Positions 1,154 through 62,558 of a stretch of DNA of 64,000 bases are shown here, one piece after another. The notes under the pieces are model-generated. The model ran no database searches, had not been told where the DNA came from, and worked only from the letters and a program-made list of their open reading frames with translations. Position 1 is the stretch's first letter. Every line of letters starts with the position of its first letter. Origin of the DNA: a virus (lineage: Duplodnaviria > Caudoviricetes); the IMG/VR virus record IMGVR_UViG_3300035661_000004. One strand, given 5' to 3'. The position numbers and the translations under genes were made by a program.

Positions 1154-1168
1154 GCTGCTCGAGACTAT

Positions 1169-2362
1169 TTATGCGGGTCCGATGATGAAGGCTTTTTCGT
1201 TCCGCTCTACTAGCAGGTTGACAATGTCTGCAGCCTGAGTGCTAACAGCGACCGCTGGCATCGCTGTCAACGCTAACGGTCGAGCTTGAGGCTGAAGCGT
1301 CGCTCCGTCAATGACTAGCTCCATACTGCCGGTCTCTCCATTAACAGCAAAGCTCACAGAGAACCCTTCAGCCGTCAACGTTGTTGTGGGCACGGTGGCT
1401 GTCAGGCGCTTGTCTTCAAACGCATAGGGTGCGCGGGCAAGCAGGAAGCTACCGGTGCTTGAGATGACGTAAGTGGTGCCGTTCTCATCAGCCGCTTCGA
1501 AGCGTACCAAGCCGTAGGTCCGGGTTCGATCAAGAGCGCCTAGGTCGATGCAATAGAGCGGAGTATGGGCGCCGACGCGTAACGTGTTGCCCCAAGCACC
1601 TGTGGACCGTGTAGCATCAAGCTGAGGCAGGATACTGAATGCAAGCTTGAGAGCTTGGTCCTCATTGAAGAACTGGGTCAGCGACTTGTAGACAAAGACT
1701 TCGATGAGAAGAGAAGGGCCTTCAAGCTGAGGAGAGAAGGTAATCGTGCCTGCCGCAGCCGAGTACAGCGTCGAGTCAAGCAGCGCGCCGTTGACAAGTA
1801 CGCGCACGTTGCTGGTGCTGTCAAAAGTCAGGAGGTTTCGGTTGGCGGAGTCATCCTTGCCCTGCACATACACGCAGCTGTCAGTTCGGCTGTAGGTGTA
1901 GCGCTTGTACTCAAGAGCCGCCGGCGTCAGCTCGAAAAGCACGGCCTTTACTTCGAGCGCCGCAGGTTGTACGGCATCGCTAGCACAGCGAGCGAGCACG
2001 CGCTCGAAGCCTACCGAGTCGTTGATGTAGAAGAGGCGCTGGGAGCCGCTAAGCTTTGACCTGACAAGCGAGAGAGTTAAGCCTCCACCGCTAAAGGATG
2101 CGAGGCTTACTTTGTCAAGGGGCTTCTCCGCGGCCGCGGCCACCCGGGCGGTGCCGCGCTTAACCCGATCGAGGAGGCCGATGACGGTTGGGGTGTTGAC
2201 AGGCCTGAGGCCGAACCTAGTGCCTGCCAAGGATAGCTTGCCAGCGCACTGGTCGGTGATGACACAGCGTAAGGGGTCTGGCCGAGTTGGGTCCGCCAGC
2301 CGTTCAATGCTGCGATCGCACGTGTCACACGTGTACTTATAGATGCGGTTGTTGAGGGCCAT
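1169..2362 (-). CDS. Putative virion structural protein with N-terminal Zn-ribbon
   Basis: 397 aa with CDTC...C...C at the N-terminus and a beta-rich body. TAAATA late motif 4 nt before the ATG. Confidence 0.6.
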   Translation of the reverse strand: MALNNRIYKYTCDTCDRSIERLADPTRPDPLRCVITDQCAGKLSLAGTRFGLRPVNTPTVIGLLDRVKRGTARVAAAAEKPLDKVSLASFSGGGLTLSLVRSKLSGSQRLFYINDSVGFERVLARCASDAVQPAALEVKAVLFELTPAALEYKRYTYSRTDSCVYVQGKDDSANRNLLTFDSTSNVRVLVNGALLDSTLYSAAAGTITFSPQLEGPSLLIEVFVYKSLTQFFNEDQALKLAFSILPQLDATRSTGAWGNTLRVGAHTPLYCIDLGALDRTRTYGLVRFEAADENGTTYVISSTGSFLLARAPYAFEDKRLTATVPTTTLTAEGFSVSFAVNGETGSMELVIDGATLQPQARPLALTAMPAVAVSTQAADIVNLLVERNEKAFIIGPA

Positions 2363-8208: not shown

Positions 8209-8214
8209 TATTTA
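8209..8214 (-). promoter_or_regulatory. Late promoter TAAATA
   Basis: TAAATA-gctga-GTG(8203). Confidence 0.65.
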
Positions 8215-8549
8215 TGCGGACCAGGAATGTTTGCTTCATTGATGTATCGAAGCACGTCCTCTGGCGTAGTTGAGGTGTACTCGACCGCGTAATCCTTGTC
8301 AACGTCGTCGACGTGAGCCATGGGTGCACCTTTACTTGGTACATGTGCCCATAGTGCACAAAGATCAGCGCCCACAGAGGCTTATTGTTGACAGTCTTGA
8401 GCTTGACATCACCTGATGTCCGTGAAGAAGGCATCTTCTATACAAAGGATCATAGTAAGGAGATCGCTATTCACACATGTGATGCTGCGTTGGGACATGC
8501 AAAGGACATGTAGCGACAACTCAGTTTTGCACAGATTCCTCCGCAATCC

Positions 8550-22954: not shown

Positions 22955-22960
22955 TATTTA
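22955..22960 (-). promoter_or_regulatory. Late promoter TAAATA
   Basis: TAAATA-tgac-GTG(22950). Confidence 0.6.
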
Positions 22961-23002
22961 TGAGAGCACTGGTCACTTGAGGGGTATTCTCAATGAAACT
23001 TG

Positions 23003-24093: not shown

Positions 24094-24099
24094 AGGAGC

Positions 24100-24105
24100 T
24101 ATTTA
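24100..24105 (-). promoter_or_regulatory. Late promoter TAAATA
   Basis: TAAATA-gctcct-ATG(24093). Confidence 0.65.
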
Positions 24106-24533
24106 AGGTGCTACAGTCTTGTAGGGGTGGCTGGGAGCGAGCTCTGCAGGCCCCACTGCCAAGCAAGGTAGCCTTCAAGCTTCCTGCGTGCTACGTCGTT
24201 AAGGGCCGCGTTTAGAACATAGCCGCTTCGGCGTAATCCCCTAAAGCGCTCGCGCTAGATTCGTAACTGTTGCGTTGCTGTGACAGAGCGACCGTATCCT
24301 GACGAGTCTGAGATCAGCACAGATTGGAAATTCAAGCTTGCTGTGTTAAACTTGAAATCGCTCGTGGTTAATGCGACATTGCCTATAACTGATTCAGGTG
24401 CGAGGGCATTAGGCCCAGGTCGTTGCCGTATCTGCGCCGTTTGCGTGAAGCAATAGAAGCACTTGGCTATAGAACGGGTCTCCGTTCAGCGCTTGGCGCC
24501 CTAAAGCCGAAGAGAGCAGTGCTGTAAGAGCAT
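24103..24533 (-). pseudogene. Remnant of a lectin/LamG-type fibre protein
   Basis: Fragments in different frames: GDPFYSQVLLLLHANGADTATTW, GPNALAP...GNVALTTSDFKFNTASL, RRKLEGYLAWQWGLQSSLP / SHPYKTVAP*. Confidence 0.65.
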
Positions 24534-24534
24534 A

Positions 24535-50807: not shown

Positions 50808-51169
50808 TTTCCGTCTCGCTTTACAGGGCGCGCCAGCTCACAGTCCTTGATCACGTAGTCGATGAACTTAGCTTCGTTGTCGAATTGTCTGCAAGCTAGC
50901 ATGCAATGTCCATCCTTGACATCGATTTCACCTGACGTGTATTCAGCGACGTAGATTCCTGGGACATAGCCTTCGTCAACGTGCGGTGCTTGAGACTCAA
51001 CCCAAATCATGTATGCCTTGATGATCGACCCGCCTGGGACAGGCAGGTACCGCGCCCTCGGCCTTAGCTTCAAGTCGCGGTGCGGCAACGCTTCAACGAG
51101 CAGCTGTTGAAAGCGAAGCGCTGTCTGCCTGAGCGCGAGAGGCTGTTCCAAGAGGGCATAAATACGCAT
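50804..51169 (-). CDS. QQ-helix family protein
   Basis: MRIYALLEQPLALRQTALRFQQLLVEALP. TAAATA 4 nt upstream. Confidence 0.75.
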   Translation of the reverse strand: MRIYALLEQPLALRQTALRFQQLLVEALPHRDLKLRPRARYLPVPGGSIIKAYMIWVESQAPHVDEGYVPGIYVAEYTSGEIDVKDGHCMLACRQFDNEAKFIDYVIKDCELARPVKRDGK

Positions 51170-58124: not shown

Positions 58125-58518
58125 TCTACATGTACATTGATCCCAAGACCGATACGCCTCGCTATCGGTAAAGGGCTTCCTCATAGACTATTTGATCATC
58201 TTAAGTGGTCTCATAATGTCATGCTTCACAATCTCATTAAGAGAAGGCTACAGCATGACACCGACAATATAGACTGTCAAGGATGATGCTACAGCTCAAG
58301 TCATTGAAAGATTTTGGTAGCTGTCTATGGTCGCGCTGACTTAAACACAGGAACGCTATTCAATCACACTGATGGAGGTGATGGTGCTTCAAATCTCTCA
58401 GAGATCACGCTACAGCGCATGTCAGACGCCCAAAGGGCCACGTGGGGGAGATCCAGAGATTAGAGCAAAGAAGCCAGCAGGGATTAAGGATGCATGGGCG
58501 GATCCAACTGGTAAATAG
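58106..58518 (+). pseudogene. Frameshifted GIY-YIG endonuclease
   Basis: VVYMYIDPKTDTPRY / GKG..RLFDHL / VAVYGRADLNTGTLFNHTDGGDG lie in different frames. Paralog of 51861..52652. Confidence 0.75.
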
Positions 58519-58673
58519 CCACCCGAGGACCTGCTGATATACTATACACGAGATGAATACGCTGGCCGTTGGAATTCTCATCTCTTCCTGCGGTTCCTCG
58601 TCGGGCGCCGCATCATCCTCATGATCGTTGATGCATACGACCCCCGCAATCACAAACTACCTGGACAAACGAT

Positions 58674-59033
58674 ATGGGCCACAAGGCAGCCAAGAAGGCG
58701 CGCAAGCTCCTCAATACCCTCCAAGCTCAAACCGGCGATAAGGACAGCTGGACGGAGCACGTCTATGTCGAGAACGAGAATCGGCGGAAGAAGCAGCTCG
58801 TTGAGCTGAAGACCGGCGAGGAGAAGGAGATCACCGTCTCCCTGGGTCAGCTGACCCTTAAGCCTGGCTCCGGACGCGCGGTCTACAAGGTCATCAAGCG
58901 CGCGATGCAGGGCAAGGCCTCAGGCGTCAACAGCAAGCCGTTGACCAACTTCCCAGTCGCGACCGCTGGCTTGCCTGTACAGCAGAAGCTGCTGCCCGTC
59001 GCCGAACCCACCTTCATCGAAACCGAAGAGTGA
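58674..59033 (+). CDS. Hypothetical protein
   Basis: 119-aa ORF with phage-typical codon usage. Confidence 0.65.
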   Translation: MGHKAAKKARKLLNTLQAQTGDKDSWTEHVYVENENRRKKQLVELKTGEEKEITVSLGQLTLKPGSGRAVYKVIKRAMQGKASGVNSKPLTNFPVATAGLPVQQKLLPVAEPTFIETEE

Positions 59034-59401
59034 TCATCGACTTAGAGCGGAAAGACGCTCTAGCCCAGGCGATTGTAATGGCTCACGACAATGAGATCAT
59101 TGACATCGCCTGCCGCACGCTTGACACGTCGTACAAGCAAGTCAGCCATGTTTGGGTTGGCCCGAAACGAGCTCTCCACATGACGCTCTCGCTCATTGTA
59201 GGCTCTAAGGCCCGCATCGAGCATGAGTACATCATCACGGGTGTGACAGGCGTCAAGCCTGGCTACAAATACTGCATGCTACGTCGCCATGTCGGCGACT
59301 ACACGTCCACGCCACTTAAAGAGGCCTTTGAAGCATTTGCCTACGCGCGAGTGAAGCAGGGCCTTTGGCAAACCGAGTCCGCAATCAGCGGCTCTTCATA
59401 A
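59030..59401 (+). CDS. Hypothetical protein
   Basis: 123 aa, GTGA-coupled to the upstream gene. Confidence 0.65.
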   Translation: MIIDLERKDALAQAIVMAHDNEIIDIACRTLDTSYKQVSHVWVGPKRALHMTLSLIVGSKARIEHEYIITGVTGVKPGYKYCMLRRHVGDYTSTPLKEAFEAFAYARVKQGLWQTESAISGSS

Positions 59402-59416
59402 AGCTCATAATGGTAA

Positions 59417-59714
59417 GGTCCCGAAGCACCTAGTATGACGCCGCTCTTTGGTTGAACTTCAGAAAAGAGGAGCGGGCTGAGGCGTCCCAGATTCGCCTTT
59501 CCCTGTGTTAGAGGCCCGGGGATGGAGCATGTACGAGCATGCCCGATAAACAGCTATGCCTAAGTCATCTTTGCAGATAGCGGTACTCCGCGGCTGATAA
59601 CTCGTTGCAAGGCAGGAGGGTGATGGCTCCTGACCAACTGTAACACTCGTCATGGAATCCCAACGGTTAAGGGGTGGGAACCATGGGTGTGCCTGCTGTC
59701 TACATCCCCCGGAC
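59417..59714 (-). ncRNA. Candidate structured non-coding RNA
   Basis: TAAATA at 59720-59725, followed by about 300 nt with no convincing ORF and many stems, including GCAA and cUUCGg tetraloops on the minus strand. Confidence 0.45.
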
Positions 59715-59744
59715 GGTACTATTTATGGGCGCACAAACCTGCAT

Positions 59745-59988
59745 CTAAATGCAATAGGACACATGGCTTGGCAACCGCCAACACCTTCGTTCTAAGCATA
59801 TGATGAGGTATGGGCCTCCTAAGCCTTCCGTCAGCTGTTGCTTAGTACTGGAGGTCGGGATCACGTCGTTTGAGCTCCACGTGACCTTGCCCGCATTGGT
59901 GTGAAGGTAGAGCTGCCCGTTCTTCTGGCTCAGCTTGATGTCAGTAGGTGCTGTTGCAGCTTAAGGAGCTTTTGCGCTCGGCGCTCAT
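59745..59988 (-). pseudogene. Frameshifted QQ-helix family protein, apparently fused to the HNH ORF
   Basis: MSAERK / KLLKLQQHLL / DIKLSQKNGQLYLHTNAGKVTWSSNDVIP in successive frames. The 3' end is uncertain. Confidence 0.45.
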
Positions 59989-62515: not shown

Positions 62516-62517
62516 AA

Positions 62518-62537
62518 TAAATAGTCAAAGCTATTTA
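62518..62537. promoter_or_regulatory. Bidirectional late promoter (inverted repeat)
   Basis: TAAATAG-TCAAAG-CTATTTA between divergent genes. Confidence 0.65.
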
Positions 62538-62558
62538 TCACCTCCTGGAGTCCACTCA

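What the first reader, a model, noticed from the sequence alone, without database searches (positions are those of the whole stretch)
59417..59725. Candidate late-expressed structured ncRNA of about 300 nt
Seen on the minus strand after TAAATA (59720-59725): stems CAUGGUUCCCA/UGGGAUUCCAUG and CAGGAG/CUCCUG; UGCCU/AGGCA enclosing GCGG-AGUA-CCGC and AUCU-GCAA-AGAU; GCAUG/CAUGC; GACGCC..GCUC/GAGCGGCGUC; and a terminal cUUCGg hairpin. It is the longest stretch in the window without a credible ORF. I do not see the hallmark ends of tRNA, tmRNA or RNase P RNA. Inference: an unassigned structured RNA, or alternatively a replication origin primed from a late promoter.
Basis: partly seen in the sequence, partly recalled or inferred. 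Interest (0 to 1): 0.7.

Follow-up and report, generated by a model that had tools for sequence, protein, structure and literature searches.

The report
New folded RNA in giant phages
The ORF-free gap holds a real, previously uncatalogued non-coding RNA of about 410 nt with an intricate fold.

Summary
Confirmed: window 59412-59825 is a conserved, non-coding, highly structured element.

- **Conservation.** Seven further distinct copies were found. They are 76-80% identical in DNA, in phages whose baseplate-hub protein is only 64-75% identical and whose flanking genes differ.
- **Covariation.** Covariation exceeded all 500 shuffles in all three tests. There is no coding signal, and four members gave no Rfam, tRNA or tmRNA match.
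- **Extent.** Two covarying long-range helices and a pseudoknot show that the fold reaches about 100 nt upstream of the TAAATA. The "300-nt RNA starting at the late promoter" therefore cannot be the whole molecule.
- **Strand.** This is unresolved. Wobble asymmetry, alignment-fold energy and helix energies favour the + strand (about 60%). The invariant cUUCGg loop and an ATAAATA late-promoter motif in 5 of 8 copies favour the - strand.
- **Function.** This is unknown. My best guess is a compact trans-acting RNA, comparable in kind to ROOL and GOLLD.
- **Earlier findings.** The scan has noted other large RNAs in jumbo phages. Its index shows no look-alike of this sequence on other DNA. The same stretch was also read in an overlapping window.

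The parts
59412..59825 (.). Whole conserved structured element, about 410 nt. The strand of the functional RNA is unresolved; plus is favoured at about 60%.
   Evidence: nhmmer and blastn find it in L008, L010, L124, L125, L114, L140 and L141. A wastewater contig matches 59404-59815. Covariation.
59797..59818 (.). Conserved outer block (minus letters GAGGCCCAUACCUCAUCAUAUG). Its parts 59811-59807 and 59804-59800 pair with 59560-59556 and 59568-59564.
   Evidence: Helices 1 and 2: 12 pairs, 95-96% paired, 3 pairs with changes on both sides. Also found by the unbiased scan. The duplex is more stable in plus letters in all 8 copies.
59728..59734 (.). P0, outer arm (minus letters GUGCGCC). It pairs with 59687-59693, and the helix encloses the TAAATA.
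   Evidence: Helix 8: 7 of 8 pairs change on both sides. Duplex folds.
59720..59726 (-). ATAAATA, the T4-type late-promoter motif. It is exact in 5 of 8 homologs, degenerate in L141 and absent in L125 and L114.
   Evidence: The motif occurs 8 times in the window against 1.44 expected. The other seven sit just upstream of ORFs on the same strand. Alignment.
59687..59693 (.). P0, inner arm (minus letters GGCACAC).
59651..59685 (.).
   Evidence: Helix 3 (7 of 8 pairs covary). Helix 6.
59604..59644 (.). P4, a long hairpin with internal loops and a conserved CACCAC-type loop.
   Evidence: Helix 4 (10 of 13 pairs covary). Helices 4 and 5.
59646..59650 (.). Pseudoknot arm (minus letters ACGAG). It pairs with the P6 loop at 59533-59537 (CUCGU).
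   Evidence: Unbiased scan: 5 pairs, 4 with changes on both sides (CGAG/CUCG, CAGG/CCUG, UAGG/CCUA). The wastewater contigs change 59650 and 59533 together.
59580..59591 (.). Invariant hairpin GCGG-NNUA-CCGC inside a nearly invariant 30-nt stretch.
   Evidence: Helix 7: 100% paired and never varies.
59525..59544 (.). Its loop forms the pseudoknot.
   Evidence: Helix 8 (4 of 7 pairs covary).
59480..59498 (.). P7 hairpin. It carries lineage-specific inserted hairpins in L124 and L114.
   Evidence: Helix 2 (3 of 6 pairs covary).
59441..59475 (.). P8 hairpin with a conserved 19-nt loop (minus letters CUUUUCUGAAGUUCAACCA).
   Evidence: Helix 3 (7 of 8 pairs covary).
59416..59431 (.). P9 hairpin. 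On the minus strand it is capped by an invariant cUUCGg tetraloop.
   Evidence: Helix 4 (U-A changes to C-G). Alignment.

Best explanation
Window 59412-59825 is the gene of a non-coding RNA of about 410 nt that belongs to no catalogued family. It folds into a compact, multi-branched structure with at least nine helices, two long-range helices and a loop-to-junction pseudoknot.

**Where it occurs.** It is an independent, conserved module. In six of the eight phages it sits between a late baseplate-hub operon and a convergent nuclease (PDDEXK/gp46-gp47) operon. These phages form a clade of uncultivated jumbo phages related to RsoM2USA.

**Strand and synthesis (inferred).** I think the functional molecule is more likely read from the window's plus strand, as the tail of the transcript that ends with the 123-aa gene. 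The ends that pair with the interior would then define a stable, processed RNA. On this reading the ATAAATA on the minus strand, present in 5 of 8 phages, gives a late antisense or second transcript.

**Mechanism (inferred, not shown).** The invariant stretches of 11-15 nt are predicted unpaired in the plus-strand fold. They would form a tertiary core or a binding surface, so the RNA would act in trans as a folded particle or protein scaffold, as ornate phage RNAs such as ROOL and GOLLD are thought to. It would not act as a cis regulator, because no gene lies downstream on either strand.
For: **Conservation.**
- Seven other distinct copies are 76-80% identical in DNA, while the hub protein is 64-75% identical and the flanking genes differ.

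**Covariation.**
- Domain 1: 93.7% paired, 22 pairs with changes on both sides, 0 of 500 shuffles as high, and 1-7 such pairs when partners are slid.
- Domain 2: 11 such pairs, 0 of 500 shuffles.
- Plus-strand model including the outer parts: 27 such pairs against 11.5 +/- 2.0 in shuffles, 0 of 500, and 2-8 when slid.
- The same holds on a structure-blind MAFFT alignment: 35 pairs against 16.2 +/- 2.5.

**Not coding.**

**Not a known family.**

**Plus strand favoured.**
- In helices found by a strand-neutral scan there are 19 A.C cells against 4 G.U cells in minus letters.
- The alignment fold gives -95.2 kcal/mol (plus) against -76.3 (minus), with 37 against 29 covarying pairs.
- P0 and the block/junction helix are more stable in plus letters in 8 of 8 copies, and P1a in 7 of 8.
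- In pairs with Watson-Crick double changes there are 13 G.U against 5 A.C in plus letters.
- Conserved unpaired positions are purine-rich on plus.
- Mean single-sequence z-score is -2.4 on plus against -1.9 on minus.
- The hairpin inserted in L114 is capped by GCAA on plus.
Against: **Evidence for the minus strand.**
- The cUUCGg tetraloop, invariant in 7 of 8 copies, is a hallmark loop only on the minus strand.
- The exact late-promoter motif in an otherwise variable linker of 5 of 8 copies argues that a minus-strand transcript is made.
- Several conserved G.U pairs exist only on minus: the outer pairs of P6, one pair in P4 and the extended pseudoknot.

**Limits of the data.**
- The strand tests rest on only 8 related sequences.
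- There are no data on transcript ends, level or timing.
- The proposed mode of action is analogy only.
Confidence: 0.5

Rival explanations
1. The functional RNA is on the minus strand. It would be made late, either from the internal ATAAATA (a core of about 300 nt ending at the cUUCGg hairpin) or as the tail of the late hub-operon transcript. Only the longer form can make P0 and the block/junction helix.
For: - ATAAATA is the phage's late-promoter motif. It occurs 8 times against 1.44 expected, and the other seven copies sit just upstream of ORFs.
- It lies 6-8 nt before the conserved core in 5 of 8 copies, with no ORF to serve.
- The cUUCGg loop is nearly invariant.
- G.U pairs on minus occur in outer P6, P4 and P5.
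- The element always has the orientation of the hub operon in the seven copies where the hub gene is in view.
Against: - A transcript from the TAAATA lacks the outer arm of P0 and the outer block, both of which covary.
- The helices that RNAalifold adds only on minus (P1, P2, outer P5) show 0, 0 and 1 pairs with changes on both sides.
- Strand-neutral wobble counts, fold energies and helix energies favour plus.
- The motif is lost in 3 of 8 copies.
Confidence: 0.33
2. The element works on both transcripts. It would be a structured 3' end or insulator shared by the two convergent operons. Helices would then be kept on both strands, which would explain the mixed G.U and A.C signals.
For: - Seven copies lie in the gap between convergent called genes, and L114 lies between convergent mechanical ORFs.
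- The element often starts within 2-20 nt of a stop codon on either side.
- Wobble-type mismatches of both kinds occur in well-supported helices.
Against: - A 3'-end structure needs neither invariant 11-15-nt segments, nor long-range helices, nor a pseudoknot.
- There is no U-tract terminator on either strand.
- The possible RsoM2USA relative lies between divergent genes.
Confidence: 0.1
3. It is a DNA-level element, such as a replication origin or another site that acts as single-stranded or extruded DNA.
For: - It is intergenic and lies next to recombination genes.
- Watson-Crick covariation is in itself strand-symmetric.
Against: - Helices spanning more than 240 nt and a pseudoknot kept by compensatory change imply global folding of one strand.
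- No direct DNA repeat of the stretch was found elsewhere in the window; iterons inside the gap and local AT content were not examined.
Confidence: 0.04
4. It is a decayed or unrecognised protein-coding gene.
For: The window has a 64-aa ORF (59653..59459).
Against: - The ORF is not conserved.
- There are 7-11 frame-breaking indels per pair.
- Variable sites fall 35/32/37 over the three codon positions.
- Stops of all three kinds occur in every frame.
- There is no Pfam hit.
Confidence: 0.01

Closest known systems
ROOL and GOLLD 'ornate large' RNAs of phages and prophages (Rfam; cryo-EM in PMC12286853)
   Same: - It is a large, intricately folded non-coding RNA carried by phages.
- It has many covarying helices and no known function.
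- It is a free-standing gene rather than a leader.
   Different: - It matches neither covariance model.
- It is smaller: about 410 nt against about 580 and 800.
- There are no tRNA genes nearby.
- It is restricted, so far, to one clade of jumbo phages.
- Oligomer formation was not tested.
Large pseudoknotted RNAs of RaK2/121Q-like jumbo phages, noted earlier by this scan (e1-306744, e1-5367134 and others)
   Same: - It is an ORF-free island in a jumbo phage.
- It is about 450-600 nt in those reports, with pseudoknots and no Rfam match.
- One of them also lies between convergent genes.
   Different: - The scan's index shows no shared sequence words.
- Models R1 and R2 find nothing in the RaK2 genome.
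- It is single-copy in what I could search.
- A relationship was neither shown nor excluded.
3'-UTR-derived or operon-tail small RNAs of bacteria and phages
   Same: It lies directly behind the last gene of an operon, with no conserved promoter of its own outside the element.
   Different: It is far larger and more structured than such RNAs, and processing has not been shown.
phi29 prohead RNA (pRNA)
   Same: It is a phage-encoded structural RNA that acts as a folded particle, and here it is embedded among head and baseplate genes.
   Different: - There is no sequence or structure likeness.
- pRNA is 120-174 nt and is made early.
- T4-type packaging motors need no RNA.
- This is only an analogy for a possible mode of action.

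Membership tests
Any Rfam 15 family | A covariance-model score at or above the gathering threshold | tested here: not met
   There are no matches in the whole window at gathering. The only weak hit is Fluoride at 13.6 bits against 34, E = 1.4. L141, L140 and L114 gave nothing at E <= 1.
tRNA / tmRNA | Cloverleaf or tRNA-like domain with a tag reading frame | tested here: not met
   ARAGORN finds none in the window.
Group I intron | It interrupts a host gene, and its conserved core matches RF00028 | tested here: not met
   The element lies between complete convergent ORFs whose identity differs among phages. There is no RF00028 hit at E <= 10. The HNH gene is adjacent only in the window.
ROOL / GOLLD | A match to the family covariance model | tested here: not met
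HEARO / IscB-TnpB guide RNA | It is linked to an IscB or TnpB nuclease gene, and it matches the HEARO model | tested here: not met
   - The neighbouring HNH protein has 156 aa and only an HNH domain.
- No HNH gene lies between the hub gene and the element in L124, L125, L140 or L141.
- In L008 and L010 the HNH gene is 1.2-1.6 kb away.
- There is no Rfam hit.
T4-type late transcript | A TATAAATA-like promoter directly upstream of the 5' end | tested here: inconclusive
   The motif is present in 5 of 8 copies and is enriched in the window. It lies inside the covarying helix P0. Promoter activity cannot be tested here.
Intrinsic (rho-independent) terminator | A G+C-rich hairpin followed by a U tract | tested here: not met
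   No terminator-like site on either strand within 59402-59929.
Jumbo-phage large RNA family noted earlier by the scan | Sequence or structure homology to the RaK2-type RNA | tested here: inconclusive
   R1 and R2 find nothing in RaK2, Xoo-sp13, XacN1 or Atu_ph07. I had no model or sequence of that family to search with in the other direction.

The most novel reading that the evidence does not exclude
This is a new class of large, pseudoknotted phage RNA with a globular fold, either a ribozyme or the RNA core of a ribonucleoprotein. It would be made from one strand, while a late promoter embedded in its own structure fires an antisense transcript from the other strand. That would give the phage a built-in temporal switch for the RNA.
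Probability: 0.15. Interest if true: 0.9.

Novelty: new variant of a known kind. Interest (0 to 1): 0.68.

Why it matters
**Why such RNAs are of interest.** Large RNAs with this density of covarying helices and pseudoknots are rare. They have repeatedly turned out to be ribozymes, ribonucleoprotein cores or self-assembling particles.

**What this one adds.** It is conserved better than the neighbouring proteins in a clade of giant phages known only from sediments, microbial mats and wastewater. It adds a family that Rfam lacks.

**A biological puzzle.** The covarying fold encloses a late-promoter motif, and the strand signals point both ways. This hints at sense/antisense control.

**A possible way in.** A weak candidate relative in the cultured Ralstonia phage RsoM2USA could make the RNA experimentally tractable.

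Tried and rejected
**Searches that gave nothing or only chance hits.**
- Single-sequence folding of the gap: z = -1.0 and -1.35, not informative.
- Phage GenBank DNA search with the gap: no match.
- The flanking 123-aa protein has no relatives. Its other contigs are identical copies.
- Self-comparison: no paralog or repeat of the gap in the window.
- IMG/VR scans with three conserved motifs found only L114. The 15-mer scan gave 109 stretches; nhmmer found only L114 to be a real match among the loci fetched.
- The metagenome pattern scan gave three loci (L121-L123) that match only the pattern itself.
- 13 IMG/VR loci, L126 and the L001, L004 and L005 loci, from phages with hub identity of 58% or less: no R1 or R2 hit except L139, where the matched hub segment is 64% identical.
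- The R2 hit in L127 lies inside a 224-aa ORF and was dropped.

**Helices rejected.**
- RNAalifold's minus-strand helices P1 (GUCCGGG/CCCGGGC), P2 (AGACAG/CUGUUU) and outer P5 (GAGUUAUC/GAUGGCUY) have invariant 3' arms, many G.U pairs and almost no change on both sides. They compete with covarying helices, so I do not rely on them.

**Other leads.**
- The frame that stays open behind the HNH stop (59942-59748) has no paralog above chance.
- Sequencing runs: no RNA holder is listed. Three wastewater runs labelled RNA-Seq hold short contigs of relatives, but the tool rates them as probably DNA, and contigs show no strand or ends.
- RsoM2USA 58494-58723 is a weak R1 hit (16.9 bits, E = 0.03 per genome) in an ORF-free gap. 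A pseudoknot-compatible AGGG/CCCU is present. There is no R2 match and the folding z-score is not special. I keep it as a lead, not as a member.
- The contig of L114 holds no hub gene.

Full report
**Setting.** The window belongs to a T4-like jumbo phage.
- The genes nearby include a gp46/gp47 nuclease pair, a PDDEXK nuclease and a baseplate hub.
- The hub protein is closest, at 40% identity, to that of Ralstonia phage RsoM2USA.
- The finding lies in a 528-bp gap (59402-59929) between two convergent units. A plus-strand unit ends with a 123-aa ORF at 59401. A minus-strand unit runs from the hub gene to a 156-aa HNH gene that ends at 59930.
- This is the longest stretch of the window free of ORFs of 75 aa or more.

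**Is it more than chance?**
- From the window alone, no. The minimum free energy of the gap is within about one standard deviation of shuffled sequence on either strand.
- Rfam, at gathering and at permissive thresholds, and ARAGORN find nothing.
- The evidence comes from relatives. The flanking 123-aa protein has none, and the other contigs that carry it are identical.
- I therefore collected hub homologs and fetched their contigs.
- In the six fetched contigs with hub identity of 64-75% that extend past the junction (L008, L010, L124, L125, L140, L141; L142 is identical to L141), the junction of the same two operons holds a stretch 76-80% identical in DNA to window 59412-59825.
- The genes on either side of it differ from phage to phage.
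- An eighth, more divergent copy (L114) came from IMG/VR through a conserved 15-mer.
- A wastewater contig matches 59404-59815 and then diverges.
- The non-coding stretch is thus conserved at least as well as a core structural protein.

**It is not coding.** ORF 59459..59653 is not conserved. Each pairwise comparison has 7-11 indels that are not multiples of three. Variable columns fall evenly on the three codon positions (35/32/37 of 65).

**Structure.** RNAalifold on eight sequences predicts 74 pairs, and 29 of them change on both sides. I built covariance models for two domains, re-aligned the sequences and counted pairs.
- Domain 1 has 93.7% standard pairs against 40-45% when partners are slid. 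It has 22 pairs with changes on both sides, against 9.0 +/- 1.9 in shuffles and 1-7 when slid. None of 500 shuffles was as high.
- Domain 2 has 91.1% standard pairs and 11 such pairs, again with 0 of 500 shuffles as high.
- The hairpins P3, P4, P6, P7 and P8 carry most of the covariation, and P9 carries one U-A to C-G exchange.
- UGCCU/AGGCA, AUCU/AGAU and GACGCC/GGCGUC fail in one or more homologs, or clash with covarying pairs.

An unbiased scan of all column pairs found three interactions that the minus-strand RNAalifold fold had missed.
- **P0:** 59734-59728 pairs with 59693-59687. It shows exchanges such as CGCC/GGC., UACC/GGUA, CAUGC/GCAUG and CCUGC/GCAGG.
- **Block/junction helix:** a 10-12-bp helix joins the conserved outer block (59811-59800) to the junction at 59568-59556.
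- **Pseudoknot:** 59650-59646 pairs with the P6 loop at 59537-59533 (CGAG/CUCG, CAGG/CCUG, UAGG/CCUA). Two wastewater contigs change 59650 and 59533 together.

A third model, which includes the outer parts, confirms this with the counting tool. It has 27 pairs with changes on both sides (shuffles 11.5 +/- 2.0, 0 of 500, slid 2-8). P0 has 7 of 8 pairs covarying. The block/junction helix is 95-96% paired, with 3 covarying pairs. P0 encloses the TAAATA, so a transcript that begins at that promoter cannot form P0 or the block/junction helix.

**The TAAATA.** ATAAATA occurs 8 times in the window against 1.44 expected. The other seven copies sit just upstream of an ORF on the same strand. The motif is very probably this phage's late promoter.
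- In the element it is exact in 5 of 8 copies, within a linker that otherwise varies.
- It is degenerate in L141 and absent in L125 and L114.
- No ORF follows it.
- It therefore probably fires a minus-strand non-coding transcript in those five phages.

**Which strand?** Watson-Crick covariation is symmetric, so I looked at asymmetric signals.

*For plus:*
- In helices detected with G.U and A.C treated alike, minus letters show 19 A.C cells against 4 G.U cells. Internal positions give about 8 against 2.
- The alignment fold gives -95.2 kcal/mol on plus against -76.3 on minus, with 37 against 29 covarying pairs.
- The helices that only the minus fold adds (P1, P2, outer P5) have invariant partners and 0, 0 and 1 pairs with changes on both sides.
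- P0 and the block/junction helix are more stable in plus letters in 8 of 8 copies, and P1a in 7 of 8.
- Pairs with Watson-Crick double changes carry 13 G.U against 5 A.C in plus letters.
- Conserved unpaired positions are purine-rich on plus.
- Single-sequence z-scores average -2.4 on plus against -1.9 on minus.
- The hairpin inserted in L114 is capped by GCAA on plus.

*For minus:*
- The nearly invariant cUUCGg loop.
- The promoter motif.
- G.U pairs in outer P6, in P4 and in the extended pseudoknot.

I put plus at about 60%. A reading in which both strands matter cannot be excluded.

**What it is not.**
- It belongs to no Rfam family; four members were tested on both strands.
- It is not a group I intron, because it lies between complete, varying ORFs.
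- It is not an HNH- or IscB-linked guide RNA, because the HNH gene is adjacent only in the window.
- It is not an intrinsic terminator.
- Models R1 and R2 find nothing in hub-linked loci of more distant phages, nor in the complete genomes of RaK2, Xoo-sp13, XacN1 and Atu_ph07.
- RsoM2USA has one weak full-length R1 hit (E = 0.03 per genome) in an ORF-free gap. The CACCAC loop, the UUAUC...GAUGG stretch, a GCCGUUUAUCG stretch and a pseudoknot-compatible AGGG/CCCU are retained. There is no match to the second domain. I treat it as a lead.

**How it most likely works.**
- *Shown:* a conserved single-strand fold of about 410 nt with long-range and pseudoknot contacts, invariant segments of 11-15 nt, no coding capacity and no downstream gene on either strand.
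- *Inferred:* it is a stable trans-acting RNA whose ends pair with its interior. It would be released from the tail of an operon transcript and would act as a folded particle or protein scaffold. The opposite-strand late transcript may modulate it.
- *Not shown:* the function.

**Relation to earlier notes of the scan.**
- The same stretch was read in an overlapping window (e1-5409097).
- Other large pseudoknotted RNAs have been reported in RaK2-like and other jumbo phages (for example e1-306744 and e1-5367134).
- The scan's index shows no shared sequence with them. I could not test structural kinship.

Noticed in passing
window 1166-1172, 2367-2373, 8209-8215, 22955-22961, 51158-51164, 62517-62523, 62532-62538: ATAAATA is enriched (8 copies against 1.44 expected). 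For five of these seven copies an ORF starts only 4-16 nt downstream on the same strand, and for one it starts 128 nt downstream. This points to T4-type late promoters with nearly leaderless late mRNAs.
   Followed up: partly
L145:1501-1730 (RsoM2USA MG752970.1 58494-58723, +): This is a weak full-length match of model R1 (16.9 bits, E = 0.03 per genome) in an ORF-free gap of 570-630 bp in a cultured phage. Several signature motifs and a compatible pseudoknot are present. It may be a distant relative.
   Followed up: partly
RsoM2USA 58752-58861 and 170340-170451: A 110-nt stretch of the same RsoM2USA gap recurs at 74% identity elsewhere in that genome. ARAGORN finds no tRNA there.
   Followed up: no
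window 24094-24534: This is the second-longest stretch (441 bp) without an ORF of 75 aa or more. It has no Rfam hit and no R1 or R2 hit.
   Followed up: no
I found no paralog above chance in the window.
   Followed up: partly
L001:6720-8190 (RsoM2USA, downstream of the hub gene): This is a 1.2-kb unannotated gap. tblastx shows an unannotated homolog of the window's 78-aa ORF just after the hub gene.
   Followed up: no
window 58125-58673: This is a 549-bp gap upstream of the 119-aa gene with two sigma-70-like promoter matches. It is not conserved in DNA among the related loci.
   Followed up: partly
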